From a virus (taxonomy: Duplodnaviria; Caudoviricetes): a DNA stretch of 64,000 nucleotides. Position numbers and translations under genes: made by a program. The notes under the pieces were generated by a model. It saw only the letters and a program-made list of their open reading frames with translations. It did not search any database and was not told the origin of the DNA. The stretch's first letter is position 1, and each line of letters starts with the position of its first letter. Below are positions 36,699 to 59,883 of this stretch, piece by piece. The stretch lies in the IMG/VR virus record IMGVR_UViG_3300020577_012633, positions 59,216 to 123,215 of that record; one strand, written 5' to 3'.

Positions 36699-36835
36699 AG
36701 GGGTTGACGGGACTCGAACCCGCATCTTCTTCGTTATGAACAGATGCTTTCGGCTTATTACGCCTTTTCCTTGGAGTCTTTTCTAGAACTTATGATCACT
36801 AGATTCTAGATATCCCTCGCTTAAGCTACAACCCC
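36699..36835 (-). tRNA. tRNA-Met(CAT)-like with ~60-nt D-loop insert and a weak anticodon stem
   Basis: GGGGTTG/CAACCCC acceptor, T arm GCGGG-TTCGAGT-CCCGT, loop TTCATAA. Confidence 0.6.
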
Positions 36836-37075
36836 GACTTTAATGCTTTTATCTCATTTAAAAGCTTTTCAATTTCCTTTTCTAAAGAGTTTTCAAATTT
36901 TGGTCTTTTGAATACCAGAAATTCAGCAGCAGTTTCTGCGCACATTTCCCAACCTTGCTCTCCTAAAGAGTTGAGCTGTTTTGTGTACTCTACCGTTGAA
37001 GAGGCTCCGGTAATAGATTGTACTACTTTGTATTCCCAAATCATAATTCACCTAATGGAGCCGAGGGGAATCGAA

Positions 37076-37483
37076 CTATTTCCCAGTAACTATAAAAACC
37101 TGCTCAAGCATCAATCGAGTAATCCTAATGCATTCTTCAGCTTGCCTTTTTGTTGAACTCTTAATGTCATGGTTTGCAATATTTCCATGTTTTCTTAATC
37201 TCGTAAGAGCAGGTTTCATTTTCTTGGAAAGAAGATTAGTGTTGACTATAAAATCAACATAAGCAGCAAAATTCAAACCAACTACCGCGCCTTCTTTAAC
37301 AGCAGCATTCATTATCATTTTCCTGCAAAGCATTGTACATGCCGTATAATGCCCACAAGAAAAAGACGACTTAGCTTCTCTATAAAGAGAATCTAAAGAT
37401 TTTGGAAGTCCATTGATATCAGCAGGAAGATATTTAATAAAACTAGTTACTAGTTGTTTGCTTAGATCAGAAGTTTGAGTCAC
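37076..37483 (-). CDS. DUF4145 (HEPN-like) protein
   Basis: YTACTMLCRK, LRKHGNIANH. Confidence 0.75.
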   Translation of the reverse strand: MTQTSDLSKQLVTSFIKYLPADINGLPKSLDSLYREAKSSFSCGHYTACTMLCRKMIMNAAVKEGAVVGLNFAAYVDFIVNTNLLSKKMKPALTRLRKHGNIANHDIKSSTKRQAEECIRITRLMLEQVFIVTGK

Positions 37484-38021
37484 TTTGTTTCTCCGTAACT
37501 GCTTTGCAAAACTCTATTACTTCTTTGTCGTCAAATTTATTTCTTGCGTAGTTGGCAATCACGGAAACAAATCGAACATTCCCTTGTATGTACCCCTTAG
37601 AGCAGTCTATACGATCAAGACTTGCTCTATTTGTTACGGGTTTACTACTCCATTTAACGGTTCCAAGAGGAAGCTCCATTTGCCAACCAGTAAAAGGACA
37701 AATGCCTTTTTGTCTATCCCAAATCTCTTTCAGATATTCAAGAGTTAGAGTGTTTTCTTTTCCTTGTTCTTTTACTCTTGTTCTGATCCTTGCTAAATAC
37801 CAACGAAAAGGACTAAAATCATCTTGTTTTTTACCTTTTTGAAGGTTTTCAGGTCTTGGCTTAAATAATCCATTTGCAAAGTTTTCTTTTGCCGCGATAG
37901 AAGAGGAACAATCTCTACTACAGAAGTGCCTCTTTTTTCTTTTGATTGTTCTGTTGTATTCTGATACGGTTTTCTTAAACTTCACTTTGCATGAGAAACA
38001 TTCACATTCAAAATAATTCAT
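37467..38021 (-). CDS. HNH homing endonuclease
   Basis: CPFTG, ASLDRIDCSKGYIQGNVRFV..N. Confidence 0.85.
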   Translation of the reverse strand: MNYFECECFSCKVKFKKTVSEYNRTIKRKKRHFCSRDCSSSIAAKENFANGLFKPRPENLQKGKKQDDFSPFRWYLARIRTRVKEQGKENTLTLEYLKEIWDRQKGICPFTGWQMELPLGTVKWSSKPVTNRASLDRIDCSKGYIQGNVRFVSVIANYARNKFDDKEVIEFCKAVTEKQSDSNF

Positions 38022-38104
38022 AACTAGATTCCTCCTAGTTATGAATTACTGTATTATAATGGAGCAGTCCTCTAAAAAATGGAGGAAAGCTCATGTATTT
38101 TTAC

Positions 38105-38452
38105 TGGAGCCGAGGGGAATCGAACCCCTGTCTTTAGCGAATCTTTCAAGCGTTACTACAAGTTTGTTTGATGATTTATCTTATCTCAATGTCTATCATC
38201 AACGAACATACATTGAGAGCATTTTTCTCTTATCTCAAACTGACTTAATGAAAAAGGTTTGGGTCAGTTCCAGCAGATGTTTTTCGCTAAACTCATTATC
38301 TGCGTCAAAAATTTAGCGGGTAGCCTTAATTAGGCTGCCATTGCGAGAGTGCTGTTGCCAGCTAGTTTTTTGCATACTTTTTACGAGTCCAGCATGCTCC
38401 TCGACTTGCAACGTTCTTGTCTAATCCCTAAATCGAATACCAGTACGGCCCC
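38105..38452 (-). ncRNA. ssrA: tmRNA, predicted tag (A)GNSTLAMAA*
   Basis: GGGGCCG/CGGCTCCA acceptor with G3.U70, T arm, internal ORF GGC AAC AGC ACT CTC GCA ATG GCA GCC TAA. Confidence 0.92.
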
Positions 38453-39381
38453 TTGTTTTTTGTTCTCTTCAAACGGTTGACCAGCCCTTTTGACTTTCTT
38501 AATCCTTCTGATCTCAAATGGGGGCGGTCATCTCTGAATTCTCGCATCTTCTTCTGCTTCTGAGCGGCCATGAAGTAATCTCCATAGCCAACGTAATTGT
38601 TGGCTAATTAGATTTCATGGCACGCTCCTTTCTGAGATTTATCATCTTACTTCCTTGGTGTTCTAAATGGATGCCTGTTACCAGGCAAGTTGTCTCTTCT
38701 TATCGGAATTTGCTGACCTGGAACTTTATACTTTTTTGATGGAACATAAACACTTTGTTTTGGAATATTGCTTCTTTTGCTTTTTATTGCTTCTTGGGTG
38801 TATTTTATTTCTAGAGGAGGAGGTATTATCTTCTTCAGGTTTGTTAATTTATCGTATTCTTTCTTGTTATTCTTTTTCAACCATTTCGCATATTTTTCAT
38901 TAGTATTTAGAAGTTGAATAGATCTCTCAGCAAATTTCAACATGTCATTTCTATCATCTCTTTGCATTGCGTCATAAAAATATTGAAGGTTCCATTTTAT
39001 AAGATCAGGTTGTTCAATATATTCGACTTGACGAATAGTGACTATCTTTGCCTCATGCTTGATTGTAGGAGGCAAATGCAAAAAACAAGATATAAAAAGT
39101 GCAGAGAGCATAAATCATTGCGGGGCTTTTCAACCCCGCAACGAAAATTCAAAATTCTTCACAGTTTCTATCGACAAGCAATTTTTTTATAACTGCTCGG
39201 AGAGATTTCTTCATTTCGGTTCTACTATTTTCCACCAAAGTTAAACCAGCGTAAAAAGATTTTTCCGTCTCAAGAACTCTATGCTTTTCTTTAAGGAATT
39301 GCAATACTTCTTCCGTTACGGAATCAATCTCTTTATCATCCGGCATATGTGGACCCATACATGGCATTCAAATATATCCTT

Positions 39382-40194
39382 TTATACCAAACAGGTTGAA
39401 CACTCAGAGCAATACTTTGCGCTAGATTTGCAAGCCTTACCGCAAGTAGGGCATTCAACCTTTTTACGAGTAAGAATAGGAGTAACAACCGCATTTCCTT
39501 GAGTTGTTTCGCCCTTCAATTCAAAGACAATAACATGCTTTGTTGGATTAAGACTCCATAGAGTAGTGCTTCCAAAATTTTGATTTACATGAGATCCTGC
39601 AACAGTTATGCCTGCTTCGTTTTGAGAAACAGTATGACCTCTTTTTACATTCGATTCTTCAACTACAGTAGAACTCTGAAAATTTTGGCTCTTTATGCCT
39701 TTAGTCTTTACAGATCTAAGATTATTTAGAGTCCAATTATCAGGACGAACCCAAGTAGGTTTTGTCTTATAATGATCATCAAAAGTTACTAGAGGACGAA
39801 CAGGATAAGTGGGAAGCTGATTTTCGTATTGGAATTCAATACGAATAATTCCATCGTCAATTCTGTCTCCGCGATGATTGCTTATCTTTTCAGTTTTTTC
39901 GATGAAACGAAAAGCGTTCTTAGCAACATTGCCAGAATCGTCTAGGAAACCTTTGATTTCGCTTTCAGAATTTCCATCAATAACGAGCTGACGATTATTC
40001 AGAACATCTTTTCCATCAACTGTTACTCTTACTGCTGCTCTGCGAACATCGTTATTCTTGAAGCGAATACTATATTCACTTCCAAATGGAAGATAAACCG
40101 CTCGGCTTCCTCCATTATTGATTTCGCGAGCAATCTTCCCATTAACTGCAACTACTGCTACCAAGCCTGCTGTATACATCATAGTATACTCCAT
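39382..40194 (-). CDS. Hypothetical protein with C-terminal zinc ribbon
   Basis: CPTCG..CSEC. Confidence 0.65.
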   Translation of the reverse strand: MEYTMMYTAGLVAVVAVNGKIAREINNGGSRAVYLPFGSEYSIRFKNNDVRRAAVRVTVDGKDVLNNRQLVIDGNSESEIKGFLDDSGNVAKNAFRFIEKTEKISNHRGDRIDDGIIRIEFQYENQLPTYPVRPLVTFDDHYKTKPTWVRPDNWTLNNLRSVKTKGIKSQNFQSSTVVEESNVKRGHTVSQNEAGITVAGSHVNQNFGSTTLWSLNPTKHVIVFELKGETTQGNAVVTPILTRKKVECPTCGKACKSSAKYCSECSTCLV

Positions 40195-40278
40195 TTTTTA
40201 GAGCGTTCCGGCTAGCCGCTCAACCTGTTTTAAGCCGGATGGAACTTCTTTGAGGAACAACCTCTTAGAAGCATGATA

Positions 40279-40306
40279 AGTATATCGTCTTTTTTTCACT
40301 TGTCAA
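40279..40306 (-). promoter_or_regulatory. sigma70-like promoter
   Basis: TTGACA-N16-TATACT overlapping the GACGATA motif. Confidence 0.65.
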
Positions 40307-40612
40307 GAACATTTCACGCTCTCATTTCATTTTTTCCAATTTCCTGCTTATTTTTTCTCCTCTTTTTTCCAGTTCAACAATACATTTATGATAAAATGAT
40401 TTTCTATTCTTGAAATTTTCTTTTTTATCCCAAGTTGCATCCAGGTATGCAATCATCATTTCTTGATTCATGTCTAAAATATTTGCACTTGAAAATATAG
40501 TGTCAATTAGGCTATATTGCTGAGCCTTACAAATATCTTCTGTAGCTAAATAAATATTATTGATATCGCCAAGCGAATTCGCCATTAATAGCTCCTTATT
40601 TTTATGGGAAAA

Positions 40613-40740
40613 TGGACGAGAAGGAATTGAACCTTCAATCTTTGATCGGCGGACCTGCAAAGGTTGTCTAGTTTTCACCAGACTGCGAAGTGAGAGCGGC
40701 AGGTTCCTAATTCAATGTTCTACCTTTGAACTAATCGTCC
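40613..40740 (-). ncRNA. tRNA-like RNA with the anticodon arm replaced by a large structured domain
   Basis: GGACGA/TCGTCC acceptor, D arm GTTC-AAAGGTA-GAAC, T arm GAAGG-TTCAATT-CCTTC. Confidence 0.7.
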
Positions 40741-41548
40741 TCGATATTATATGGTATAAATTCTTCAAAATCTTCAATACAAGCTTCATAAGGTTCAAAA
40801 TCTTCATATGCCAAAAATTCTGCATAAATATTTGTTGGAAAACTAGTTACAGAATATTCTGCTATACGCTTCTCTGTATCTGCTGTAAGTTTGTTTATAA
40901 AAGACGGGTCAATCATACAAGGACCAATTTCTTCTTTTATAATAAAATCAAGTTTTTCATGTTTATTATGTGAATTATTTTCCATGTTTTAAATATTTAG
41001 ACCTTAAAAAAGGTTCTGCGCAAGAATCATAAGGTTGCCAACGATCTTTATAAAATGCATCAAGATCATCAATCTTATCATCTATATCGCTATTTGATGC
41101 CCAACGATCAATGTCGTCCCATTCTCTTTTACATTTAGAGGCATCTTCAGTAAGATGATCACACTCTTTAATAATATTCAATATCTTTTTATTATGCTTC
41201 ATTATTTAAAACGAGTTGTTCTTCTTTAATAACATTTATATAAGCCTTAAATATACCAAAATATTTTCGCATTTCTATATCAATTTTGTTTAAGAAAGCT
41301 TCAGCTTTTTCTGGACTATTAAAGAAAACTCGTTCTCCCCATCTATTATTCGTTATACCCTCAGAATAACTCATGCCAATAACTTTACTAGAATCAGGGA
41401 ATTCACCATTTTTTTGCTTGCAAGCAACTAGCCAAACTTCATCTAATAAAACAGAATTTTTATTTTGTGACATATATTTTTTTCGACTAGAAAACTAGGA
41501 ATCAAAAACGTCTCACATCAATCATTCATAGAATCTATATAAAATTCC

Positions 41549-41627
41549 TCTATGATAGCTTCACGATCATTGATAACTATAAAATTTATCTATGGTCGCT
41601 TCACGATCATTGATAACTATAAAATTT
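41549..41627. repeat. Tandem duplication, 40-bp period, 2 copies
   Basis: TCTATG(A/G)T(A/C)GCTTCACGATCATTGATAACTATAAAATTT twice. Confidence 0.9.
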
Positions 41628-42095
41628 GTGGATATTTCATCATTTGTTATTGGAGGATAAAATTTTAGAACATTATTGCTTATTGAAATAGAATGGACAA
41701 TTCCAAAACCTGATATAATTCTTTGACCTTCTAAAAATCCACTATCTCCTAAAGGAATATCATCAACTTCTTTTCCAAAGGATAGAATAGAATAATCTTG
41801 ATTATTCTTATAATCAATAACAAAAAATATAGTTTCTTTATTAGAATTAGAACAATACATAAGTTTAACATTGTCTTTTATATCTAAGCAATGCCAAACA
41901 TTATCTTTGTAAATTGTCGTATTTTTGATTTGTTGTTTAGCTAAATCAATGTAGTTTTTTGGATCAACGTAAAAATAAAGCAAAAATTCTTTAACTAAAA
42001 GAATTGAAACTATTATCCATATTAAAAAACAAAAAACTATGAAAGCAGTTAGATGTATTTTTTTCATATTCCATTCATCGGAAAATATGAAAAAA

Positions 42096-42701
42096 TCATC
42101 CAATTATAGATTCGTCATCAGCATCGACAAGATCTCTCAAGCAAGCTCTATCGTTCTTGAGAAGTTCATCCTGATTAGGAATAAATTCTTCTCCGTTTTG
42201 ATGTCTTTTGAGTAATCTATCATACATTACAATAGATACAGCAGTTGCTAGATTAAGACAATGCCTAGTAGGAATAACAACCCTTCTATGACAATAGACA
42301 AGTTCATCTCTTCTCAAACTTCCATCTTCAGGTCCAAAAACATAAAGAGATTTTTCTGGATGAACAAAATCATGAAGTTGTTCTGCGCCTTCTTTAAGTT
42401 CAATAGCAACAGGAACAACATCTTTAGGAAACATATCAAAAAACATATCATTCTGTAAAAGTTGAACGTTAGAATACCCTTTCATGCGTTCTTCACGAGG
42501 TATTCTTTCTTTCCCATTAGGATCAAGATTTAGTCTATCTCCACTAAACCATACCTGCTTTATTCCAAAACAAGAAGCAATTCTTATAACTGCTCCAACA
42601 TTTCTAGAAAACTTTGGATTTACCAATGCTATAGCAGGAGATTCTCCGACCTGTGGAGCGTTTTTACCAATCAGCATTTTCTTAACAGCATTGTTTGTCA
42701 T
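42096..42701 (-). CDS. SpoU/TrmH family RNA methyltransferase
   Basis: NVGAVIR, FGPEDG, CLNLATAV. Confidence 0.88.
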   Translation of the reverse strand: MTNNAVKKMLIGKNAPQVGESPAIALVNPKFSRNVGAVIRIASCFGIKQVWFSGDRLNLDPNGKERIPREERMKGYSNVQLLQNDMFFDMFPKDVVPVAIELKEGAEQLHDFVHPEKSLYVFGPEDGSLRRDELVYCHRRVVIPTRHCLNLATAVSIVMYDRLLKRHQNGEEFIPNQDELLKNDRACLRDLVDADDESIIG

Positions 42702-43119
42702 ATTTATACTTCAACAAATTCATCAAAAAGCTGAGAACCTAGATCTTCAGGAGAAGGTATATATTCAAAATTTCTAAAATCTTCAATGCTTTTCAATACA
42801 AGATTATCAATATTTTCTTCTTTTGTATGAAACGCTTTTTGGCCAAAAGCAAAAATAGCTGCATCAATTTCGCTTCTGTCTCTTTTTGGGAATTTAGCAA
42901 TAAGGTATTCAGAAAGCCATCTACCTGAAAAATCACATTTCTTAAAATGTGAAAGATTTACATGAGAGAAAAACTTTTTAGCTTCTGGTCGTGTTTCTAA
43001 CAAATCATGCAAAAATTTTTCTCTAATCTTGAACTGTCCAATTTTACCACTGTACAAAAAGTCTTCTTCATATCTAGCAAGTTGTTCACTAGTAAAAATC
43101 GGAACGCCATTACTGATTA

Positions 43120-43671
43120 TCATTGGTTCAATTCCTCTTTGATTTGGTCTAGAACTTTTCTAGCAGCATCAAAGTCGCTTAGTTTCCCGCCTTTTGCTCC
43201 ACGAGAGAAATGGCAAGATTCGCATAGTGTACGCAGCCAATAACCACCCGAAGCTGAAGTTGTGACAGATTCTTTAGTGCCACAATCCTCGCAAATAAAA
43301 CTGGAGCGATTACATATTTCCTGAAGTTTATCGTAAATCTCTTTACAAAGTTCTTGAGAAGCATGATTGAAACCAATATAAATCGTTAGTCTAGCAAATT
43401 TTTCTTTAATCTGTAATATATGTATTTCTGGACATTGATTTCTATACGATTCAAGCATTTGACAAGCTTCATCTAATAAAGAATACCAACCTTTACCAAT
43501 GCCAAGTCCTCCATTCATGGAGTTCATTGGCTTTCCTCTTTTGATAAATAGTTCCGGGTATTTAGCTTGAAAAGCATCAGCAGCTTTTTCGTCTTCTTTC
43601 CACATTTCAGCATCTACACTCATAATAAACTCTTTATAATTTATAAGGCTCACATACACCACAGAAGCCAT
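43120..43671 (-). CDS. Hypothetical phage protein with C-terminal Zn site
   Basis: GWYSLL, QIKEKF..L.IY, CEDCG..LCESC. Confidence 0.6.
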   Translation of the reverse strand: MASVVYVSLINYKEFIMSVDAEMWKEDEKAADAFQAKYPELFIKRGKPMNSMNGGLGIGKGWYSLLDEACQMLESYRNQCPEIHILQIKEKFARLTIYIGFNHASQELCKEIYDKLQEICNRSSFICEDCGTKESVTTSASGGYWLRTLCESCHFSRGAKGGKLSDFDAARKVLDQIKEELNQ

Positions 43672-44584
43672 ATGTTGAGTATACTGGAGTTTGACATTTA
43701 GGACATTTTCCTATTGGCTTAGGATTTTTCTTTTCAAGACATTCTTTACCGTCACAATCAACTGAATTACAATGGTCGCATCCGGTCAATTTGCCATTGA
43801 TTTCAAGAGCCTTAAATCCATTTCCTTCAATCTTCTGAATACACTTGGTATTCTTATCTTTGTCAAAAATCCAAAAAAGTTCTCCGGTCGGAGGGTAAAC
43901 AAGAATATTTCTTTTCTTATTGTGCCACTCAAAAGGACCAGAGTTTCCAACACTTACCTTGCCATTAATTTCAACAATCTTATCAAAATCACTATGAAGT
44001 TCAATTGGATTACCTTCGCCAAGCTCATACCAAGGACGAGACATTCTACATGGAGGTGGTTTAGGAAGCGGATCTTTACCAGAAAGAACCCTAAACAGCA
44101 AAGCAGAATGATCTGCATCTGCGCTACTGGGTTTTGATTTTATTTTATCAAGCCATAATCCAACTCTCTTAATAGCATAATGAATTTGACTATTGCTCAA
44201 TCCAATAAAACTAAGATTATAAGGCTTTATTATTTTTGAATTTTGCGCAAAAGAAGAAATAGCTTCAATTTCTTCAAGCCTTTGTTTAATCATTTCTGAA
44301 ACAGATGATTCATCAACTTTATGGCAATAAAAAGCATCGCACTTATTTGTTTTCTTTTTCTTTCCAGAAGGTTTGAATTTCGAATCAAAAGCTAACTCGT
44401 AATTAATCAATGAACTTTTCTGATCGCCGGTTTTACCGAATCTTCCTTGATACTGGGAGTTTTCACTTTCGGTAACGAATCTCTTTTCTATAGAAGTTAC
44501 TATCCAATAGCCGCTGTGATAGGCAGTAATTAAGTCTCCTACCTTGATCCCGTTTTCATGATCTACCATATTTAAAAGAGCCAT
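43634..44584 (-). CDS. Hypothetical protein
   Basis: 316-aa ORF. Confidence 0.55.
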   Translation of the reverse strand: MALLNMVDHENGIKVGDLITAYHSGYWIVTSIEKRFVTESENSQYQGRFGKTGDQKSSLINYELAFDSKFKPSGKKKKTNKCDAFYCHKVDESSVSEMIKQRLEEIEAISSFAQNSKIIKPYNLSFIGLSNSQIHYAIKRVGLWLDKIKSKPSSADADHSALLFRVLSGKDPLPKPPPCRMSRPWYELGEGNPIELHSDFDKIVEINGKVSVGNSGPFEWHNKKRNILVYPPTGELFWIFDKDKNTKCIQKIEGNGFKALEINGKLTGCDHCNSVDCDGKECLEKKNPKPIGKCPKCQTPVYSTYGFCGVCEPYKL

Positions 44585-49412: not shown

Positions 49413-49416
49413 AAAA

Positions 49417-50410: not shown

Positions 50411-50502
50411 AACTTGGTCCTCCTTTCTTCTATGAAATCAACTATTTGAACTTTTGGTTTATCAAATATTCTAAGCAATCTTGTAATAACTCGCAAAAAA
50501 AG

Positions 50503-51594: not shown

Positions 51595-51668
51595 TCAGAA
51601 TAACAGGATTTGAACCTGTAGCCTTCTCGTCCCGAACGAGATGCTCTACCAAATTGAGCTACATTCTG
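51595..51668 (-). tRNA. tRNA-Pro(CGG)
   Basis: TCTCG-TTCGGGA-CGAGA. Confidence 0.9.
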
Positions 51669-51675
51669 AATTTAT

Positions 51676-51981: not shown

Positions 51982-52006
51982 TTTTTACTCACAATAACGA
52001 ACAAAG

Positions 52007-52081
52007 TCAGGGAGACAGGATTCGAACCTGCGACTTCTTGGACCCAAACCAAGCGCTCTAGCCAAGCTGAGCTACACCCTG
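52007..52081 (-). tRNA. tRNA-Pro(TGG)
   Basis: CTTGG-TTTGGGT-CCAAG. Confidence 0.93.
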
Positions 52082-52161
52082 AAAGCCCGTCCTTGATTCT
52101 GGTCACTCTTTCGAGGAGAGCAGAGACGGGAAGTCAGCACGCGTGCTGACATTATATGTTG

Positions 52162-52288
52162 CTGACAAATATAGGGCCGTATCTAGGAGTTTCAGAATAC
52201 TGGAAGCCATTGCTGGATAGTCTCTTTATCTGAGTCATAAAGACCACTTCTACGCATAATGTTAACCTAGAAAACATCGACTTGTCAG
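52162..52288 (-). ncRNA. Y-RNA-like ncRNA
   Basis: CTGACAAGT/ATTTGTCAG closing stem, GTCGA-N9-GGTTAACA. Confidence 0.65.
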
Positions 52289-52304
52289 TGACTACTAAAA
52301 CTAA

Positions 52305-52435
52305 AGACAAATATGTTGTTGCATTTAGCGATCTCAGAAACTGTACCTCATTCCGAGGCTAGGTCATCTCTGATGAACAACCTACTGAACGAACTTCTCC
52401 TATTAGTATGTTAAGCTAAACGCTCCGACTTGTCT
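52305..52435 (-). ncRNA. Y-RNA-like ncRNA
   Basis: AGACAAGT/ATTTGTCT closing stem, GTCGG-N8-GCTTAACA; GTCGATA motif just upstream. Confidence 0.65.
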
Positions 52436-52647
52436 AATAAAGTATCGACATTTCTATAAAGAAATCTCGAACTACACGCTTTTCAACCTTGGGCCGCTAC
52501 AACATTTCCTTTATCATCATATATCAAAACTTTACCATTTTGATCCACTCCAAAAACTCTTTTCCCTTTTGGAGCTTTTAAATCTGTTTCATATTTTTTA
52601 GTCTTATTATTGAACTTTACATTAACTTGTTTGGCTTTTTTCATAAG

Positions 52648-52720
52648 TGGAGACTACGGGAGTCGAACCCGTGACCTTTTGCATGCCATGCAAACGCTCT
52701 GCCAACTGAGCTAAATCCCC
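52648..52720 (-). tRNA. tRNA-Ala(GGC)
   Basis: TTTGC-ATGGCAT-GCAAA; G3.U70. Confidence 0.93.
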
Positions 52721-52744
52721 AAAAAGGAGGGATAAAACCCTCCT
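52721..52744 (-). terminator. Intrinsic terminator after the RF gene
   Basis: AGGAGGG/CCCTCCT hairpin followed by TTTT. Confidence 0.7.
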
Positions 52745-52749
52745 ACTAT

Positions 52750-53500
52750 TTACTTCAATATGATATCAAGATTTCCCTTTATAACATCTTTGATATCATA
52801 TGTTTTCTTGCCTGTCAAATGATCAGAAACATAGCCCTTATAGAAACAATAAGTTCTTCTAGCTCCGCCTCTTCCTGTATTGCTGAGAATGTTTTTACGC
52901 TTTTCAGCATAATCCTTATTTTGTTCAGCAAACTTCATTTCTTGAATACGTCCGCACAGAAGCTCATAAGCATGAGCTTTATTCTGCTGAGGAGAACGAT
53001 GAACCTGAGACTTAACAAAGATTCCTGTTGGAATATGTTTCATTCTACATGCACTCTTGCATGTATTAACTCCTTGACCACCTGGTCCTGAAGCATTTTG
53101 AAACATAATCTCAATGTCTTCGTCTCTAATAATCGCTCCTTTGAAAGCAAATATTGGCAAGATTCCAACTGTTACAGTTGAAGTATGACGACGACCGCTT
53201 CTTTCGGAAGGAGGACATCTTTGAACAACATGCTTGCCTGATTCATTTTCAAAAGCAGATAATACATTTTTACCGCTTATTTCAAGAGTAGAAGAACCGT
53301 AATCAACATCAACAATCGAAATGGTTAGGTTCTTCTTTGTTGCGTATCTAACATATATTTCGGAGAGTTCGTGAACAAAGTTTTTAGCATCTTCTCCACC
53401 CTCTCCTGCTCTTATTTCAATAAGAATAGAAGAAGGGTCAAAGAGACTCCTGTGCCTTATGCTGAAGGCCATCGTTCCAGCGATTTCTGTTACTATTCAT
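52750..53500 (-). CDS. Class I peptide release factor homolog (lacks domain 1) with a predicted +1 programmed frameshift
   Basis: EIRAGEGG, GRRHTS, GPGGQ; AGGAG-TCT-CTT-TGA-C at 53451-53437 in frame with ATG 53500. Confidence 0.85.
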
Positions 53501-54107
53501 AGCAAAACCCTTTCAATTAAAAGTCCACTGGCTTCTTGCAAAAATAACAAGACTACGGTTCGCTTGCCGCTGCGCTACATCGTTGTTTTCATATTGAAAA
53601 CATTAGGTTCTTTAATTGGATGAATGCTGGCGACATCCCCACTCCACTGAACTGTTCCAATACAAAATAAATGGAACTTAGGCTCTCCATTAACTTCTTT
53701 TTCTACTGTCCTGGCTTTTGCATGTATATGAACTTCAGAAGCTAAATGCTCAATATCATTTATGACAACTCTCCATTTGCGACCTTCTGGATCATTTTGC
53801 CATTTGGTATTGAATCTCAAAAGTATATTATCATATTCTATCATGGTAATTCATTTTTTGCTTCTACTTCAATTTCTCTTGAAGAATAACATTCTGATAT
53901 TAATCGAAAATGTTGTATTTTTGGGCCACCAAGACCTTCATATGTTGCAATACGCAGTCCTTTAGTATTATATCCACGAGGAATTCTACAAACAACATTA
54001 TCTTTTGGACCAAAAGGATCTGAATCTTTTTCTATAGACCAACAAAAATCTCCAGCTAAAAGAAGTATTCCATCTTTTGTTATAGGAAGAGACTTTTTCA
54101 TAGTAAA

Positions 54108-54178
54108 CTGACCTACTAGGATTCGAACCTAGGCAACAGACTCCAAAGGACTGCGTGCTACCGTTACACCATAGGTCA
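54108..54178 (-). tRNA. tRNA-Gln(TTG)
   Basis: Loop CTTTGGA, cloverleaf. Confidence 0.9.
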
Positions 54179-54376
54179 ATATAATTATCTTCTTTTGGAA
54201 GACTTTATAGCAAGAAGTGCTTCTTGCATTTTTCTCTTAAGTCTAGCTTGTCTTTTACGATGCCTTTTTGCTGTATTCTTTTGCTTACTTGTCATTTCTT
54301 GCCTTTCTGATTAATTTCTGCGCCAGAAATATAATCATCGTATACATATGATGTAAAATTCAACCATTCACCAAAA

Positions 54377-54447
54377 TAGCCCGACAAGGATTTGAACCTA
54401 GACTAATTGAATCAGAATCAACTGTGCTACCGTTACACTATCAGGCT
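54377..54447 (-). tRNA. tRNA-Gln(CTG)
   Basis: GTTGA-TTCTGAT-TCAAT. Confidence 0.88.
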
Positions 54448-54733
54448 AAAACTTTCCAAACCATTCTTTTACGCTGCCGTCATTCCTGTCGTCTTCATCT
54501 TCTTGCGACATTCTTTCAAACTCTTTTTCTTGATTCTTGTATGCTTCATCATTGAATATTTTCATCATTCTTATGGCATGAGCGTATTTAGAACAAGATT
54601 CTTTATGACCAAAAGCAGGCTCTTCGCTATTATTACAAGTCATTTCTTTGCATTCATCGCATCGAATCTTCCATTGACTCATAACAGCAAAATATGCCTG
54701 CTTCTTTTCTTTATCAGAAATCTCTTCCATAAG

Positions 54734-54807
54734 TGGACCTGACGAGCATCGAACTCGCTTCCTCAACGTTGCGAACGTTGCGCTCTACCCAACTGAGCTT
54801 CAGGCCC
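54734..54807 (-). tRNA. tRNA-Ala(CGC)
   Basis: CAACG-TTCGCAA-CGTTG; G3.U70. Confidence 0.9.
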
Positions 54808-54811
54808 AAAA

Positions 54812-54872
54812 ACCAGTATGTTTGTGAAATAAGGGGTACGTTACAAGTGATAACCTTATTTCTTCGACTGGT
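54812..54872 (-). ncRNA. Minimal Y-RNA-like hairpin
   Basis: ACCAGT-CGAA-GAAATAAGG...CCTTATTTC-ACAAACAT-ACTGGT. Confidence 0.65.
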
Positions 54873-55081
54873 ATTTATTTCAACGACGGTGATGATAGTA
54901 AGAATGAGAATGATAGTAGTACGGAGCTGGTTGCACAAAAATTACAGTTCTTGGAGGTGGGCAATAATATGGCCCACTATCAACAACATAAGTTGTACAA
55001 CCTGTTAAACTCAAACCACAAACTGCTAACAAAAGAAAACAAACTAGTTTTTTCATATCTTCCCCCAAATATACTCTAAAG

Positions 55082-55154
55082 TGGAGCCTGCGAGATTCGA
55101 ACTCGCCGCCTATTGCTTGCAAAGCAATCGCTCTACCAAATGAGCTAAGACCCC
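55082..55154 (-). tRNA. tRNA-Ala(TGC)
   Basis: ATTGC-TTTGCAA-GCAAT. Confidence 0.92.
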
Positions 55155-55172
55155 AATAATCTATCAAACAAT

Positions 55173-55541
55173 TTATTTCTTATTTGATTCTCTTTCTTCC
55201 CAATGTAATTTTTTATGACAATTTGAACACAGAACGTCACACTTTTTCATTTCTTGTTTTATTCTTTTTAGAGAATAACCGTTTTTAATAGCCCAACTTA
55301 TTTCAAAGTCCTTTTCTGCTGAGTCTCTATGATGAAATTCTAGACAAGCTACATGACATTCGGAGCATTTTGCGCAACCATTTATTGTCTTAAATCTATT
55401 TATATATTCGTATCCAATTTTCATGTACTTATCTCTAAGAATAGATGAATTCTTGATATGCTTTTTCTTGTTTTTCTTATACCATTCTTTTTGATATTTC
55501 TTCTGGTAGGCTTTATGGTCTTCAATGTTTTTGTATGGCAT
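55173..55541 (-). CDS. Free-standing HNH endonuclease between tRNAs
   Basis: CAKC, LEFHH, CDVLCSNCHKKLH. Confidence 0.85.
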   Translation of the reverse strand: MPYKNIEDHKAYQKKYQKEWYKKNKKKHIKNSSILRDKYMKIGYEYINRFKTINGCAKCSECHVACLEFHHRDSAEKDFEISWAIKNGYSLKRIKQEMKKCDVLCSNCHKKLHWEERESNKK

Positions 55542-55596
55542 AATTTATATGTCCATATAGGACTTTTGAGTTTATAACTTCAATTTTACTTTCAAA

Positions 55597-55669
55597 TGCG
55601 TTCGGAGGGAGTCGAACCCTCAACTTCGGGCTTAAAAGGCCCTTACTCTGCCAATTGAGTTACAAACGC
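55597..55669 (-). tRNA. tRNA-Lys(TTT)
   Basis: Loop CTTTTAA, cloverleaf. Confidence 0.9.
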
Positions 55670-55742
55670 TATCTTTTACCATCATCGTCAGTCTGTTTTC
55701 GACATTTCATTGCAACACCATTCCTTTTTATATAAACACAAA

Positions 55743-55814
55743 AGCGGCTTCAGGGATCGAACCTAACTTGGGAGATAATGACTCTCCCCAGACCACCAAG
55801 GCCTAGCCAACCGC
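55743..55814 (-). ncRNA. Atypical tRNA-like RNA (6-bp D stem, loop GTCATTA)
   Basis: GCGGTT/AGCCGC, TAGGCC/GGTCTG, GGAGA/TCTCC, GGTTCGATCC. Confidence 0.55.
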
Positions 55815-56095
55815 ATCTTAATCATCTGATTGATCAAACTCAGAATCATCAGATATGTCAAAAGCTCTTGTATAATTTATTCCAATAAATTTAGAAACAT
55901 CCTCTAAGATTTCATCTATTTCTATATGCTCATTACCTTCATTACCGTGATATTCACCAGAAGCTACCTCAAAAAGCATATGCATTTTAGAAATCATTTC
56001 TTGTAAAATCTTTGATACATCCTGAAGACTTGGATCTTCATTATATTTGATATTATTTTTTAATAAATCAATAGCTTCTTGTGGTTTTATCATAA

Positions 56096-56170
56096 AGCTC
56101 CCGGTGGGACTTGAACCCACACACTTCAGTTTTGCAGACTGAGCCATTTGTCCAATTCTGGTACAGGAGC
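56096..56170 (-). tRNA. tRNA-Cys(GCA)
   Basis: TCAGT-CTGCAAA-ACTGA; U73. Confidence 0.9.
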
Positions 56171-56571
56171 AATTCTAAACTAACACCATTTATTCTTATT
56201 CTTATGAAGGGCATTTCTTTTGTTATTTATAAAACTTCGCGCCTTTTTTATTGCAACTTCTTCTGGAAGATTTTGTAGTTTCTTTATTTCTTCTAAGCTT
56301 TTCTTAACTTTATTTGGATCGGTTGAAAGATTTGCAATATATCCAATAACAACAGCAAGCGTTATTCCATTACCTTTAGCATGAGGGCTTGCCCAATCCC
56401 AAATCTTGTCAAAAATTCTCTGTTGAAAAGCAATAGCTTTCCAATTGATTTTAACTTTACAATTATTTTTCTTTCTAAGCAAACGAATTTCTTTTATTTG
56501 TTTAGAAAGAACCTTTTGTTGTTTGAGAAGTTCTTCCAATCGTTTCGATATTTCATCTTGCTCATTCATAA

Positions 56572-56642
56572 AGACCAGATCAGGAATCGAACCTGCGATA
56601 TCAGTTTTGCAGACTGAACCCTTACCACTCAGGCATCCGGCC
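56572..56642 (-). tRNA. tRNA-Cys(GCA)
   Basis: TCAGT-CTGCAAA-ACTGA; U73. Confidence 0.9.
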
Positions 56643-56645
56643 AAT

Positions 56646-56790
56646 AGCTAGTATATTTAATTGGTCTGGGGTTAGCTCTCTAATCTTTCGACTTTGAGAG
56701 GTGCCTTACCGTTAGGCTACCCCGCCATATTTTCAAAAGGCGGGGATAAGATTTGAACTTATAATGTTAACCCATTCCATTCGACTAGCT
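56646..56790 (-). ncRNA. YrlA-like Y RNA (circularly permuted tRNA mimic)
   Basis: Order: stem with GTCGAATG, T arm, closed acceptor CCCCGCC/GGCGGGG, D arm, 3' stem. Confidence 0.8.
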
Positions 56791-56825
56791 GAATTTAGTT
56801 ATCGGCTTTTCAGCCAAAACTAACT

Positions 56826-57143
56826 CTATTTCACTCTTTTATTCCAAGCCTTCACAGCATCTCTTACTAACCAAGCTTCCCAAGGTTCTTTTTTAGAACC
56901 ATTCTTACTATTAGTTACTACGACCTTAGCAGGACATTTTGTACAGAAAGCTTTGACTACTTTATATGAGTCTGTAAAGACTTCGCCGGAATCCCATGAG
57001 CTGTGCCAATTCCTTTCATAATCAAGCTTAATATCAGGTTCTTTGTTGCCGCAAAATGGACAAGGTTTAAGATTACGATGAACTACAGTAAACTTTTGCG
57101 TTCCAACCTTGCTAGTATCAAGATATTCTATATTAGTTTTCAT
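56826..57143 (-). CDS. Lar-like (restriction alleviation) zinc-ribbon protein
   Basis: LKPCPFCG..CTKC..AWNKR. Confidence 0.7.
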   Translation of the reverse strand: MKTNIEYLDTSKVGTQKFTVVHRNLKPCPFCGNKEPDIKLDYERNWHSSWDSGEVFTDSYKVVKAFCTKCPAKVVVTNSKNGSKKEPWEAWLVRDAVKAWNKRVK

Positions 57144-57604
57144 AAACTCAATATATCCCAAGCAGCAGATGCAGCTATAGGACGACTCTTATAAGTACAT
57201 TGACCCGTATTTTCATTTTCAGCCCACCACCAATAGCAGCCAGCTTCGATTTTATGTAAAAGTCTCCAGCCATGAAGTTGTAAAGTGGACCAACAAGAAG
57301 GAAACAAGTCTTCCCTTATTACATCAATCGTTTCAGCTTGAATAATCATTTCTCATCACCATAATCAATTAATTTGCCTTTTTCTATCGTATAGCGGCAG
57401 TTCTCGTTTTGATAACCAAAAACTTTATCAAGTATTTTCTTTTCTTTAAGAGTTATTTCGCCTACATGAAAAAGACCAAAAATATATCCTTGACAAAAAT
57501 CCATAGTTGATTCATGTCCAAGAGCTAATCTATCTGTAATGTTTTTCAACTTTGTTGCATTTTTGTCAATATTCTTTTCGCTTTTATTCATTATTTTTGA
57601 CATA

Positions 57605-58252
57605 CTAAATATTTCCTTTTGGGTTACTCAGAAACAAAAGTTGTTCTCTATCAGAAGTATGATGCTCATATTGTATGGGCCTAGTTTCTACATGATTGAA
57701 CATATTCTCAAACATAGAAATAGGATATAAACCTTCTCTTACTCCAAATACCATTTTACAATCTGGAGTAGCAATCTTTAATATATTTGGCATTATATCT
57801 TCAAGAGGATAATGATATCCTGCACTCAAAAATGACATAATAAAATCTACTTTATCAAGCTTATCAAAACTGTCAACTTCAACATTGAAACATTCAATGT
57901 TTGTGAGATTGTTCATTATGCAGAATTTTTCTGTCATTGATAAATCGTTATATATTCTTTTATTTCTAGAAAAACCGAACATCTTACTATTTATTTTAGC
58001 AGGAAAAGTATTTCCGTCTGCAAGTATGAATCTAGTATCATTCAATTCAGCAACATTTTTTACATAAACAGACATTCTTCCTAATCCGCAACCAATTTCA
58101 AGTAATCTTTTTGGTTTGCCAATAAGGTCAGAAAAAGCAGAATATTCAGCTCTTGATATTTCATCATATGCAGATTTATCAATGTGCAATTGAGAAACAT
58201 GAGCCAAAGCTATTTTCATAAAAGGGGTTGGTATGTCAAATACAAAAAGCAT
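57605..58252 (-). CDS. Class I SAM-dependent methyltransferase
   Basis: LLEIGCGLGR, SFLSAGYHYP. Confidence 0.75.
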   Translation of the reverse strand: MLFVFDIPTPFMKIALAHVSQLHIDKSAYDEISRAEYSAFSDLIGKPKRLLEIGCGLGRMSVYVKNVAELNDTRFILADGNTFPAKINSKMFGFSRNKRIYNDLSMTEKFCIMNNLTNIECFNVEVDSFDKLDKVDFIMSFLSAGYHYPLEDIMPNILKIATPDCKMVFGVREGLYPISMFENMFNHVETRPIQYEHHTSDREQLLFLSNPKGNI

Positions 58253-58255
58253 AAG

Positions 58256-58343
58256 CGGAAGCGACAGGATTCGAACCTGTGGGACTTTTTACATCCGTCA
58301 CCTTTCCAAGATGATGCATTAAACCAGACTCTGCCACACTTCC
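58256..58343 (-). tRNA. tRNA-Ser(GGA)
   Basis: Loop TTGGAAA, long variable arm. Confidence 0.92.
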
Positions 58344-58638
58344 AAAAGACAATTTATTCAAACCACTACTTCCAAGGATCATTTTCTATTTCTGCTCTAT
58401 TTGACATAATCTCGTCAATATTTTCTATTTGATTTCTCAATTTTGCATCAATTTTATCTATAAGTTCCCAAACTTCTTTAGAATACTTATCGTATTCTTT
58501 CTTTGTTAGAAGTTTAAGCCTTCTATCAAAAATTCTTTTTGGATATGTTGTTCCAAGATGAAACATAAGCAACCTGAAAAATTCAAGATGATCTGTTTCA
58601 GCAGCTATTGGTGGTTGTCTTTTTTTCTTTTTCATAAG

Positions 58639-58730
58639 CGGATGGTGTCAGAGTTGAACTGACGGTCGCCTATTAAAGACGACGGCGGTTTAGCAAACCG
58701 CTGGGAAAAACCGACATTCCCGTACCATCC
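58639..58730 (-). tRNA. tRNA-Ser(GCT)
   Basis: GCGGT-TTGCTAA-ACCGC, long variable arm. Confidence 0.88.
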
Positions 58731-59740
58731 ATTCTCAAATGCTAAACTCATGCTTAGCATAAACCTTAATTTCTTCTTCGTATTTTATTCGACTAGAAAT
58801 GATATTCTTTATTTTTTCTCTATCTCTTTTTTGCGTCTTAAGATAATCTTCGTCTCCTCTTGATGAACAAGGATAATCGGTAACATCTCGTATTTTTGCT
58901 ATTCTAATAAACTCAGTAGGAGATAAAAGCCATTTTTCTTTTGTTACTGAAACATCATAAACATTATAAGTACAGGAAGCTCTAACCTTGTTCTTTGTTC
59001 TATAAACAAAATATTCAGAATATTTATCAGGGTATATTGCGCTAAAACAACATGAAATAGAGGGAGCAACGCAAATTCTCTTTATGTCTGGTTCTCTTTG
59101 ATCAGCATTAACAATGCTTCTAGGAACAAAAGTATAACTAGAACCAAGATTTTTAGGAGTAACATGATAATAATATCTTGAAATTTTGCTCTTTATTATT
59201 TTTCGCATAAAATAAAAATCGACAAAGAATATTCACAATATTATACTTTCACAGTATCAAAAAAATAGCTATTCCCCAAAATCATTCCATCTTATTAATG
59301 GATTCCAACTAATATTTAGTTCGTCAAAGAATTCTCTATTAAAACCATCATCTTCAATCTGATCAAACTTCCAATGTGTTTGATAGCCTATCTCTCTAAG
59401 AATATCTTTAATATTCTGCAAAGCCTTGCGATTTCTTTTATTATATTGACTTTCAAACTGACGAACACCAATCTGTACTGAACAAGAATCATGAAGATCA
59501 AGAATAGCACAAGATATAGAAGCTGAAACTTTTAAAAGCATTTCTTGGTAAGCTTTTTCATAGAGAAACTCTTCAGATTCTACTTTTTTTGTTTCTCTTT
59601 TATTTTCAGACTTAATTCTTTCTTCACGAGCTTTTTCTAATTTTTTGCGAGCAGTATCAGCAGTCATTAGTTCAATAGATATTTTATCCATAATCACAAA
59701 TCGACTTAAACTTAGCTTACTGATACAAATTCACCATAAG

Positions 59741-59883
59741 TGGAGACGGTAGGAGTCGAACCTACAATAGTCCTTATCGGACAACCCGGTGTACAGTCGG
59801 GCTTGCTCGCCTTTTCTTTAGCATAATACAACTGATTATTCTAAAGATTGGAACTCGCTTTAGCTTATCCTTGCCGCGTCCCC
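59741..59883 (-). tRNA. tRNA-Tyr(GTA) with large D-arm insert
   Basis: GGGGACG/CGTCTCC, loop CTGTACA, variable arm GTCC/GGAC, T arm. Confidence 0.7.

What the first reader, a model, noticed from the sequence alone, without database searches (positions are those of the whole stretch)
36699..59883. Two unrelated tRNAs carry D-arm inserts with the same boundary motif
Seen: tRNA-Met-like (motif span 36761-36822) and tRNA-Tyr (59808-59860), 23 kb apart, both have GCT(T/A)-AAGCGAG-[hairpin]-GAAAAGGCG-..AGC in the D arm. The hairpins differ in sequence (TCTAGAA/TTCTAGA versus TCTTTAG/CTAAAGA). Both tRNAs have imperfect anticodon stems. I do not recognise this motif. Inference: a second class of tRNA-embedded module, either a protein-binding internal loop or a mini-intron.
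Basis: partly seen in the sequence, partly recalled or inferred. Interest (0 to 1): 0.8.

Follow-up and report, generated by a model that had tools for sequence, protein, structure and literature searches.

The report
Extra arm on phage tRNA mimics
A giant phage carries a tyrosine-tRNA look-alike with a conserved extra hairpin arm, and a second tRNA-like RNA beside the phage's own tyrosine-charging enzyme has picked up the same flanking words; neither looks able to decode, so they are probably tRNA-shaped carriers of a docking arm, not tRNAs with introns.

Summary

RNA B (59741-59883, minus) has positional orthologues in at least five related phage contigs. All share:
- a complete small D arm;
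- a 60-nt extra arm between the D arm and the anticodon stem, with invariant flanks and a hairpin that varies by compensatory changes;
- a GUA loop with C37 (G33 in the relatives);
- a long variable arm and A73.

A 333-kb relative also has a normal tRNA-Tyr. B is therefore an extra, non-canonical Tyr-like RNA, and its insert is not in the D arm.

RNA A (36699-36835, minus) lies 1.4 kb upstream of a phage TyrRS gene. Its orthologues sit next to TyrRS and do carry a D-loop hairpin, but without the motif. A's insert is a mosaic whose flanks resemble B's arm.

I found no bulge-helix-bulge, group I core or K-turn.

Best reading: a conserved docking arm on non-decoding tRNA mimics, with the partner unknown.

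Earlier notes of this scan describe similar five-armed tRNA-Tyr mimics in other TyrRS-carrying giant phages.

The parts
59741..59883 (-). RNA B: tRNA-Tyr-like gene of 143 nt (acceptor, C8, D arm, extra arm, GUA anticodon arm, long variable arm, T arm, A73)
   Evidence: Acceptor and T arm scan; sequence; orthologues and alignment A2; same place in the tRNA array as in relative G006, between tRNA-Thr(CGT) and tRNA-Ser(GCT)
59862..59875 (-). B: complete D arm, GGC / AAGGAUAA / GCU
   Evidence: RNAfold. The relatives have GGC / AUGGAUA / GCC, so the G-U pair becomes G-C
59802..59861 (-). B: extra arm inserted between the D arm and the anticodon stem
   Evidence: Flanks invariant in 6 sequences; the hairpin has 4 pairs changed on both sides; 99% of cells paired against 33-58% when slid
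59854..59860 (-). B: 5' word AAGCGAG. Its GCGAG can pair with CGAGC of the 3' flank through tandem G-A pairs
   Evidence: invariant in A2/A4
59815..59847 (-). B: variable hairpin of the arm (7 bp, mismatch, 5 bp, 7-nt loop)
59808..59816 (-). B: 3' word GAAAAGGCG, continued by AGCAAG, which is also invariant in the orthologues
59785..59801 (-). B: anticodon arm CCCGA / CUGUACA / CCGGG (GUA anticodon, C37, A x C at 31-39)
   Evidence: The relatives have CCCAG / CGGUACA / CUGGG, with G33 and C37
59770..59782 (-). B: long variable arm
   Evidence: compensatory changes against the relatives
36699..36835 (-). RNA A: tRNA-like gene of 137 nt with a 73-nt D loop (best constrained model), irregular anticodon arm, discriminator U
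   Evidence: orthologues A' in L267 and L270
36816..36822 (-). A: 5' word AAGCGAG = A14, A15 and the 5' strand of the basal helix of the D-loop insert
   Evidence: A' has AAUGCAG at the same place
36782..36810 (-). A: hairpin of the D-loop insert. The basal pairs UCU/AGA match B; the apical loop resembles A'
36773..36783 (-). A: first copy GAAAAGAC-UCC. Its CUC(C) pairs with GAG of the 5' word
   Evidence: RNAfold. The arm model aligns this copy, not the second, to B's 3' flank
36752..36769 (-). A: second copy GAAAAGGCG plus UAAUAAGCC. This stretch is absent from A' and 14/17 identical to B's 3' flank; it can fold as a GGC / 7 nt / GCC mini-hairpin
34013..35263 (-). Phage tyrosyl-tRNA synthetase gene, 1.4 kb downstream of A on the same strand
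   Evidence: Pfam tRNA-synt_1b 5e-63 and SYY C-terminal domain. In relative L267 the A-type RNA ends 20 nt before the TyrRS ATG

Best explanation
These are two tRNA-shaped non-coding RNAs, not two tRNAs with the same intron.

B belongs to a conserved lineage of phage tRNA-Tyr look-alikes.
- It keeps the marks a bacterial TyrRS reads: G1-C72, A73, GUA and a long variable arm.
- It has one linker nucleotide instead of two before the D arm, and C at position 37 (G at 33 in the relatives).
- It carries a 60-nt extra arm at the hinge between the D and anticodon stems.
- The base of that arm (AAGCGAGUUCC ... AAGGCGAGCAA) is held invariant, while the hairpin above it drifts with compensation. That is the signature of a sequence-specifically recognised docking site.

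A is a second tRNA-like RNA tied to the TyrRS locus. Its lineage carries a hairpin in the D loop. In this phage only, the flanks of that hairpin have become B-like, through a partly ancestral 5' strand plus a 17-nt B-like stretch.

Inferred, not shown: the RNAs are made and trimmed like tRNAs, do not decode, and present the arm to a phage or host factor. For B this happens in the setting of the known phage-host conflict over tRNA-Tyr, as a decoy, a chargeable non-decoding Tyr carrier or a TyrRS ligand.
For: - Motif real and non-random; tRNA frame present.
- Five orthologues of B in IMG/VR contigs whose TyrRS is 61-62% identical, at the same place in the tRNA array.
- Flanks invariant; the hairpin has 4 pairs changed on both sides; 99% of cells paired against 33-58% when slid.
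- D arm complete upstream of the arm, with a G-U to G-C change.
- The relative G006 also has a canonical 85-nt tRNA-Tyr with a CUGUAAA loop.
- C37 in all six sequences and G33 in five.
- A' is accepted by Rfam's tRNA model with a 56-nt D-loop insert and an 11-nt anticodon loop, and ends 20 nt before the TyrRS ATG.
- Insert similarity: A-B z 5.6, A-A' 2.6, A'-B' -0.3.
- The motif occurs once per related record, only in the B type.
- The same phage encodes Ro60 and other tRNA-scaffold RNAs, TyrRS and an HNH-RNA ligase.
Against: - No expression or end-mapping data.
- No partner identified, and no conserved neighbouring gene for B.
- The pairing of the invariant flanks cannot be settled because they never vary. 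Tandem G-A, GUUCC/GGCGAGC with a bulged C and, in the relatives, a local CUCGC/GCGAG hairpin all compete.
- A's insert scores only 21 bits with the arm model and is not found at window scale. Its likeness to B may be a recombination scar without function.
- B of this phage has U33, so it may be less crippled than its relatives.
Confidence: 0.45

Rival explanations
1. Intervening sequences: the inserts are removed after transcription by a phage- or host-encoded endonuclease and ligase that read the conserved flanks. This would leave a tRNA-Tyr and a CAU tRNA.
For: - Removing B's arm leaves the canonical single nucleotide between the D stem and the anticodon stem.
- The flanks are conserved, as splice signals would be.
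- The phage has an RNA ligase fused to an HNH nuclease.
- Several other tRNA genes here are interrupted by inserts.
Against: - No bulge-helix-bulge can be drawn at either junction (inspection).
- Too small for group I or II, and no Rfam intron or ribozyme match at E up to 10.
- After removal B still has one linker nucleotide and C37 (G33 in relatives), and A still has no regular anticodon arm.
- The insertion sites differ (D loop against position 26).
- A' has an insert without the motif.
- A relative keeps a normal tRNA-Tyr as well.
Confidence: 0.12
2. The arm is a second form of Ro60 (Rsr) docking site, so A and B are further members of this phage's Y-RNA-like family.
For: - The phage encodes a TROVE/Ro60 protein and tRNA-scaffold RNAs with GGUCGA-type modules.
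- YrlA RNAs carry GNCGAAN0-1G, thought to be the Rsr contact (PMC4201824).
- B's 3' flank reads GGCGAG, and RNAalifold pairs it with a bulged C before GA, as in GGUC(C)GA.
- The relatives have an exact GGCGAAG just 5' of the arm.
Against: - GNCGA has only four fixed bases, so it is expected by chance in about half of all 140-nt RNAs.
- No Rfam Y_RNA or YrlA match.
- The exact GGCGAAG is absent from this phage's B.
- No TROVE gene was found in the 333-kb relative that has B', though that record is only 66% complete.
- A and B lie 60-85 kb from the Ro60 gene.
Confidence: 0.15
3. Working tRNAs with tolerated expansions: B is the phage's tRNA-Tyr partner for its own TyrRS, and A is a Met/Ile-type tRNA. 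The arms are harmless or protect against anticodon or variable-loop nucleases.
For: - B keeps the TyrRS identity marks and lies in a tRNA array.
- No other tRNA-Tyr is seen in the 123 kb held for this phage.
- The phage encodes TyrRS.
Against: - The record is only about 24% complete. In the relative the normal tRNA-Tyr lies further along the same array, beyond where this contig ends.
- C37 is conserved, the relatives have G33, and there is a single 8/9 linker.
- A 60-nt arm at the hinge should clash on the ribosome (inference).
- A and A' have 11-14-nt or closed anticodon loops.
Confidence: 0.12
4. For A only: the shared words are a by-product of recombination or templated repair between two tRNA-like genes of one genome, and have no function of their own.
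For: - The motif is absent from A' in two relatives.
- A carries a near-duplicate (GAAAAGAC... then GAAAAGGCG...) and a 17-nt stretch 14/17 identical to B, in a different structural place.
- HNH homing endonuclease genes sit next to these loci.
Against: - Both flanks of A's hairpin are B-like while its apical loop resembles A'. One conversion tract would not give that pattern; selection on the flanks would.
- The A gene otherwise keeps an intact acceptor stem and T arm.
Confidence: 0.16

Closest known systems
Bacterial class II tRNA-Tyr (Rfam RF00005), including the canonical tRNA-Tyr of the related phage G006
   Same: G1-C72, A73, GUA anticodon, long variable arm, regular T arm, and a place in a phage tRNA array.
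   Different: A 60-nt extra arm at the D/anticodon junction, one linker nucleotide before the D arm, C37 (G33 in relatives), and no detection by Rfam or ARAGORN.
YrlA / bacterial Y RNAs (Chen et al. 2014, PMC4201824) and the tRNA-scaffold Y-like RNAs of this phage
   Same: A tRNA-like body carrying a separate conserved module, with Ro60 encoded in the same genome.
   Different: The module sequence differs (no GGUCGA/UUGAC helix), it sits in the D loop or at position 26 and not in place of the anticodon loop, the anticodon arm is kept, and no Rfam match was found.
Archaeal/eukaryal tRNA introns at non-canonical sites (bulge-helix-bulge), e.g. Aeropyrum pernix (PMC3241643), and bacterial group I introns in tRNA genes
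   Same: Extra sequence inside a tRNA gene at a D-arm-proximal site, with conserved junctions.
   Different: No bulge-helix-bulge, no group I core, a bacterial phage setting (tmRNA, bacterial-type TyrRS), and bodies that are not canonical after removal.
Tyrosine-accepting viral tRNA-like structures (BMV TLS-Tyr; PMC10870377, PMC11791061)
   Same: A viral RNA that imitates tRNA-Tyr and carries additional helices.
   Different: Those are 3' ends of plant RNA virus genomes, with a pseudoknotted acceptor and no cloverleaf. Here there are free-standing genes with true acceptor, D, anticodon, variable and T arms.
Engineered tRNA scaffolds and aptamer-tagged tRNAs (PMC3753655, PMC7590224)
   Same: A foreign hairpin is grafted on a tRNA frame, which gives stability and processing.
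   Different: Those are man-made and graft mostly in the anticodon stem or variable region. Here the graft is natural, conserved and at other sites.
'Five-armed tRNA-Tyr mimics' noted earlier by this scan in other giant phages (unpublished AI notes)
   Same: A Tyr-tRNA shape, an extra hairpin, an impaired anticodon loop (G33), and a phage that carries TyrRS and RNA repair genes.
   Different: Those notes place the hairpin in the D loop and describe tandem copies. Here the arm follows the D arm, there is one copy per genome, and no sequence likeness was found by the index.

Membership tests
Canonical tRNA (RF00005) | Score at or above the Rfam gathering threshold (29 bits), or detection by ARAGORN | tested here: not met
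   A and B are absent at the gathering threshold and at E up to 10, and absent from ARAGORN with and without intron mode. The orthologue A' does pass, at 36.9 bits.
Canonical tRNA (RF00005) | 7-bp acceptor stem and 5-bp T stem with a UUCRANY loop | tested here: met
   for both A and B.
Canonical tRNA (RF00005) | 7-nt anticodon loop with U33 and a purine at 37, and two nucleotides (8, 9) before the D stem | tested here: not met
   B has C37 and a single linker C8. The relatives have G33 as well. A has no regular 5-bp stem with a 7-nt loop.
Bulge-helix-bulge tRNA intron | Two 3-nt bulges separated by a 4-bp helix at the exon-intron junctions | tested here: not met
   By inspection of both junctions in A and B, no arrangement gives the 4-bp helix between intron start and 3' exon start.
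Group I intron in a tRNA gene | P1-P9 catalytic core (over 200 nt) and an Rfam Intron_gpI match | tested here: not met
   The inserts are about 50-60 nt, and no match was found.
Y RNA / YrlA | Ro60 contact motif GNCGAAN0-1G or GGUCCGA in a stem | tested here: inconclusive
   B's 3' flank reads GGCGAG, 5 of 6. The relatives have an exact GGCGAAG beside the arm. The motif holds too little information to decide.
Y RNA / YrlA | Rfam Y_RNA or YrlA model match | tested here: not met
Y RNA / YrlA | Binding to Ro60 | not testable with these tools
   No RNA-protein prediction or assay is on hand. A Ro60 gene is present in the genome.
Kink-turn | C helix, 3-nt bulge, then tandem G-A / A-G pairs | tested here: not met
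   B's tandem G-A (GCGAG against CGAGC) is flanked by Watson-Crick pairs on both sides, without the 3-nt bulge.
Phage tRNA-Tyr mimic with extra arm (B lineage, defined here) | Invariant flanks AAGCGAGUUCC ... AAGGCGAGCAA around a covarying hairpin, downstream of a complete D arm | tested here: met
   B meets it at 76 bits with model R1, as do five orthologues. A does not: 21 bits with filters off, and not found at window scale.

The most novel reading that the evidence does not exclude
Giant phages that carry their own TyrRS maintain a class of chargeable but non-decoding tRNA-Tyr mimics. Their conserved extra arm is a portable docking module that can move between tRNA-like scaffolds (here from B into A). 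The system would act in the fight over tRNA-Tyr with defences such as Septu or retron PtuAB, for instance as an uncleavable decoy or as a tether that brings a repair or charging enzyme to damaged tRNA.
Probability: 0.25. Interest if true: 0.8.

Novelty: new variant of a known kind. Interest (0 to 1): 0.6.

Why it matters
tRNA-shaped RNAs that do something other than decode are known from only a few cases: Y RNA-like YrlA, plant-virus tRNA-like structures and tmRNA. Here a phage lineage keeps a five- or six-helix tRNA-Tyr look-alike next to a normal tRNA-Tyr and its own TyrRS. The invariant base of the extra arm says that something reads it.

If the arm is a docking site, it gives a handle (pull-down with a 60-nt RNA) on an unknown phage or host factor. 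That matters in a setting where host defences are already known to cut tRNA-Tyr.

It also matters for annotation. Standard tRNA finders miss these genes entirely, so tRNA counts and 'intergenic' space in huge phages are misread.

Finally, the case shows that a shared 'boundary motif' need not mean an intron.

Tried and rejected
My first spacing to the T loop was wrong and was corrected.
- **GenBank phages:** no relative.
- **Proteins next to A:** no relatives. TyrRS alone as a single query found none in IMG/VR. An alignment of TyrRS homologues did.
- **Other occurrences of AAAAGGCG** in the window (10 against 2.4 expected) lie in coding DNA or in other tRNA flanks.
- **Ideas rejected on inspection:**
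  - a K-turn;
  - a mimic of the 23S GTPase-centre;
  - SRP or 5S loop E likeness;
  - small ribozymes (hammerhead, twister, pistol), with no Rfam support;
  - a CsrA-type GGA site, because the shared 6-mer is expected by chance.
- **A model with tandem G-A pairs** written as pairs (R2) did not raise A's score, so it is uninformative.
- **Pairing with TyrRS mRNA:** a 9-nt complement to GAAAAGGCG lies in the TyrRS coding region, but it falls on the conserved Pro-Phe codons and the complementarity is not kept in relatives. I treat it as chance.
- **Neighbour genes of B** are not conserved. The conserved neighbour of A is an HNH endonuclease.
- **A tRNA-model sweep of five distant TyrRS-carrying giant phages** listed only the high-scoring tRNAs and did not help.

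Full report
**Setting.** The window is the last 64 kb of a 123-kb IMG/VR virus record that CheckV rates 24% complete, so the phage is very large. All genes run on the minus strand. The window holds:
- a long tRNA array, a tmRNA and an amber-suppressor-type tRNA;
- a tyrosyl-tRNA synthetase gene at 34013-35263;
- an NAD ligase, an HNH-RNA ligase fusion, and PARP-like and ADP-ribosylglycohydrolase genes.

The same genome encodes a Ro60 (TROVE) protein. According to earlier notes of this scan it also encodes several tRNA-scaffold Y-RNA-like RNAs. One of these I saw myself at 40613-40740, with a 62-nt insert holding GGUCCG in the anticodon loop.

**The observation.** AAGCGAG followed within 20-50 nt by AAAAGGCG occurs exactly twice, at 36761-36822 and 59808-59860 on the minus strand. 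Shuffles expect 0.01. A scan for a T arm followed by a 7-nt strand whose complement lies upstream puts each copy inside a tRNA-shaped gene: A at 36700-36835 and B at 59742-59883. ARAGORN and Rfam find neither, even at E up to 10. So the words, their places and the hairpins between them are real.

**Finding relatives.**
- Exact-motif scans of the viral, metagenome and genome collections gave only chance hits.
- The neighbouring small proteins have no relatives.
- The TyrRS does. Ten homologues of 42-65% identity stand apart from bacterial TyrRS at about 40%.
- An alignment of them (A1) retrieved related phage contigs from IMG/VR. Four have TyrRS at 61-62% identity and one at 50%.

**RNA B.** A BLAST of B against those records found a 76% identical copy (sequence). 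A pattern taken from the two copies found five in all: L329, L331, L338, L349 and L366.

The alignment A2 and its consensus fold show one design:
- acceptor stem GGGGACG;
- a single C;
- a complete D arm, GGC / AUGGAUA / GCC in the relatives and GGC / AAGGAUAA / GCU here (the closing G-U becomes G-C);
- an extra arm;
- a 5-bp anticodon stem with a 7-nt loop;
- a long variable arm with compensatory changes;
- a T arm and A73.

So the extra arm lies between the D arm and the anticodon stem, at the position-26 junction, and not in the D arm.

Within the arm, the eleven 5' bases (AAGCGAGUUCC) and the eleven 3' bases (AAGGCGAGCAA) are identical in all six sequences. The 12-bp hairpin between them has four pairs changed on both sides. 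With the proposed pairing 99% of cells pair, against 33-58% when the partners are slid.

The anticodon loop reads CUGUACA here and CGGUACA in the relatives. GUA is kept, position 37 is always C, and position 33 is G in five of six.

In the 333-kb relative G006, B' lies between tRNA-Thr(CGT) and tRNA-Ser(GCT), exactly as B does in the window. Ten kilobases further along the same array there is a normal 85-nt tRNA-Tyr with a CUGUAAA loop. That part of the array would lie beyond the end of this contig.

B is therefore a conserved, additional, non-canonical Tyr-like RNA.

**How the invariant flanks pair cannot be decided from comparison, because they never vary.** Three options compete:
- RNAfold pairs GCGAG with CGAGC through two Watson-Crick pairs, a tandem G-A/A-G and a further G-C. 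This is the arrangement known from GGCGAGCC-type duplexes (from my own knowledge).
- RNAalifold prefers GUUCC with G(C)GAGC and a bulged C.
- The relatives have an 11-nt addition whose CUCGC can sequester GCGAG locally.

In addition, the GGC of the 3' flank repeats the 5' strand of the D stem, so the D stem's 3' strand has two possible partners. None of these forms a kink-turn, because there is no 3-nt bulge next to the G-A pairs.

**RNA A.** The same relatives hold, next to TyrRS, a 126-nt RNA, A' (L267:9854-9979, L270:9463-9588). Rfam's tRNA model accepts it at 36.9 bits, with a 56-nt insert in the D loop after AAUG and an 11-nt anticodon loop. Its D stem GCUC/GAGC is unambiguous. The two copies differ by a compensatory A-U to G-C change in the inserted hairpin. 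In L267 it ends 20 nt before the TyrRS start codon.

The surrounding genes (an HNH endonuclease and a PRAI-like protein) are shared with the window's A locus. So A and A' are the same kind of RNA in the same neighbourhood, and a D-loop insert is a lineage trait. But A' has neither word.

Global alignment scores against 500 shuffles show where A's insert stands:

| Insert pair | z-score |
|---|---|
| A and B | 5.6 |
| A and A' | 2.6 |
| B and B' | 8.9 |
| A' and B' | -0.3 |

Reading the alignments:
- A's apical loop (AGUGAUCAUAAGUUC) resembles that of A'.
- Its 5' word differs from A' (AAUGCAG) by little.
- Its basal pairs UCU/AGA and the following AAAAG match B.
- After the GG of its D loop, A carries a 17-nt stretch that A' lacks and that is 14/17 identical to B's 3' flank.
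- The arm model aligns B's 3' flank to A's first, degenerate copy (GAAAAGAC-UCC), whose CUC pairs with GAG. The exact GAAAAGGCG is a second copy.

With acceptor stem and T arm enforced, the most stable cloverleaf uses D stem 10-13/87-90. It puts both the large hairpin and a GGC / 7 nt / GCC mini-hairpin in a 73-nt D loop, and it gives a closed anticodon hairpin with a 5-nt loop.

A's insert scores only 21 bits with the arm model and is not found at window scale. In related records the motif occurs once, in the B type only.

So the sharing of the words by A and B is specific to this phage lineage. Either A's flanks were selected to resemble B's, or they were copied by recombination. HNH endonuclease genes next to these loci make the latter easy.

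**Is it an intron?**
- I could not draw a bulge-helix-bulge at any junction.
- The inserts are far below group I size, and no intron or ribozyme family matches.
- The sites differ between A and B, and A' has an insert without the words.
- Removal of the inserts leaves bodies that are still irregular.

Against that, removing B's arm would restore the normal one-nucleotide spacing, and the phage has an RNA ligase. I could not look at reads. I keep splicing at about one in eight.

**What it most likely does.**

Shown:
- a conserved, structured arm with a sequence-invariant base;
- on an RNA that keeps TyrRS identity marks but departs from decoding tRNAs at positions 8/9, 33 and 37;
- beside a normal tRNA-Tyr in a relative, and in phages with their own TyrRS.

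Inferred:
- A 60-nt helix at the hinge would not fit the ribosome, so B is a mimic and not a decoder.
- The invariant base is read by a protein, or holds a defined non-Watson-Crick fold that is read.

Candidate partners:
- **TyrRS.** A-type RNAs sit at its gene.
- **Ro60.** The 3' flank GGCGAG is a near match to the GNCGAA motif of YrlA. But that motif has too little information, and no TROVE gene was found in the incomplete relative.
- **The RNA ligase.**

[quoted passage not shown] A decoy or repair-tether role fits this background but is untested.

**Known or new?** I found no paper describing such RNAs in limited full-text searches. The nearest published things are:
- YrlA;
- plant-virus TLS-Tyr;
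- allo-tRNAs (tRNAs with novel cloverleaf structures, PMC5389517);
- engineered tRNA scaffolds.

Earlier notes of this same scan report 'five-armed tRNA-Tyr mimics' with G33 in other TyrRS-carrying giant phages. Those came to my notice after I had reached the same reading from my own alignments. They agree with it. I checked on my own genomes only the parts that overlap: TyrRS present, a normal tRNA-Tyr alongside, G33, and RNA ligase present.

I rate the finding a new variant of a known kind (tRNA-like non-coding RNA) and of moderate to high interest.

Noticed in passing
window 34013-35263 (-): A phage tyrosyl-tRNA synthetase of bacterial type with the S4-like C-terminal domain. Its closest homologues (50-65% identity) come from related huge-phage contigs, and bacterial TyrRS is about 40% identical.
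   Followed up: partly
window 38102-38452 (-): A full-length tmRNA gene (Rfam 125.8 bits), 1.3 kb upstream of RNA A.
   Followed up: no
window 40613-40740 (-): A tRNA-family match of 128 nt with a 62-nt insert in the anticodon loop holding GGUCCG. It is one of the Ro60-type tRNA-scaffold RNAs. Relatives have similar RNAs sharing CUUCGCA followed by a GAAA-loop hairpin (L267:5051-5168, L269:2506-2628, L270:6167-6286).
   Followed up: partly
window 56740-56830 (-): A T arm and a 3' acceptor strand (CCCCGCC) lie directly upstream of tRNA-Cys, whose 5' strand GGCGGGG can pair with it. This looks like a permuted or split tRNA-like arrangement.
   Followed up: no
window 34913-34920 (+ strand word; TyrRS codons 115-117): The TyrRS mRNA holds CGCCUUUUC, a perfect 9-nt complement of GAAAAGGCG. 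It falls on Ala-Pro-Phe codons, and relatives do not keep the full complement, so it is probably chance.
   Followed up: yes
whole window: The 8-mer AAAAGGCG occurs 10 times against 2.4 expected. Apart from A and B, the copies lie in coding DNA or tRNA flanks.
   Followed up: partly
L268:9930-9980 and L270:9430-9460: In relatives, a lone tRNA 3' half (T arm plus ACGGCUCCA) follows directly on an ORF just upstream of TyrRS or of A'. These look like tRNA genes split by inserted ORFs.
   Followed up: no
window 22235-23320 (-): A fusion of an HNH nuclease domain with an RNA ligase domain (Pfam RNA_ligase 6e-23). It is a candidate tRNA repair or processing enzyme.
   Followed up: no
window 37467-38021 (-): An HNH / endonuclease VII-like gene conserved beside the TyrRS locus in all five relatives (58-79% identity).
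   Followed up: partly
window 5939-7516 (-) and 62344-63240 (-): A WGR-PARP-like protein and an ADP-ribosylglycohydrolase in the same phage.
   Followed up: no
G006 (L405) 19389-19529, 20176-20302, 21384-21498 (-): The 333-kb relative has at least three further long tRNA-like genes with inserts in the anticodon region. One has CUGGUCGAUAGG, as in this phage's Ro60-type RNAs, although no TROVE gene was found in that 66%-complete record.
   Followed up: partly
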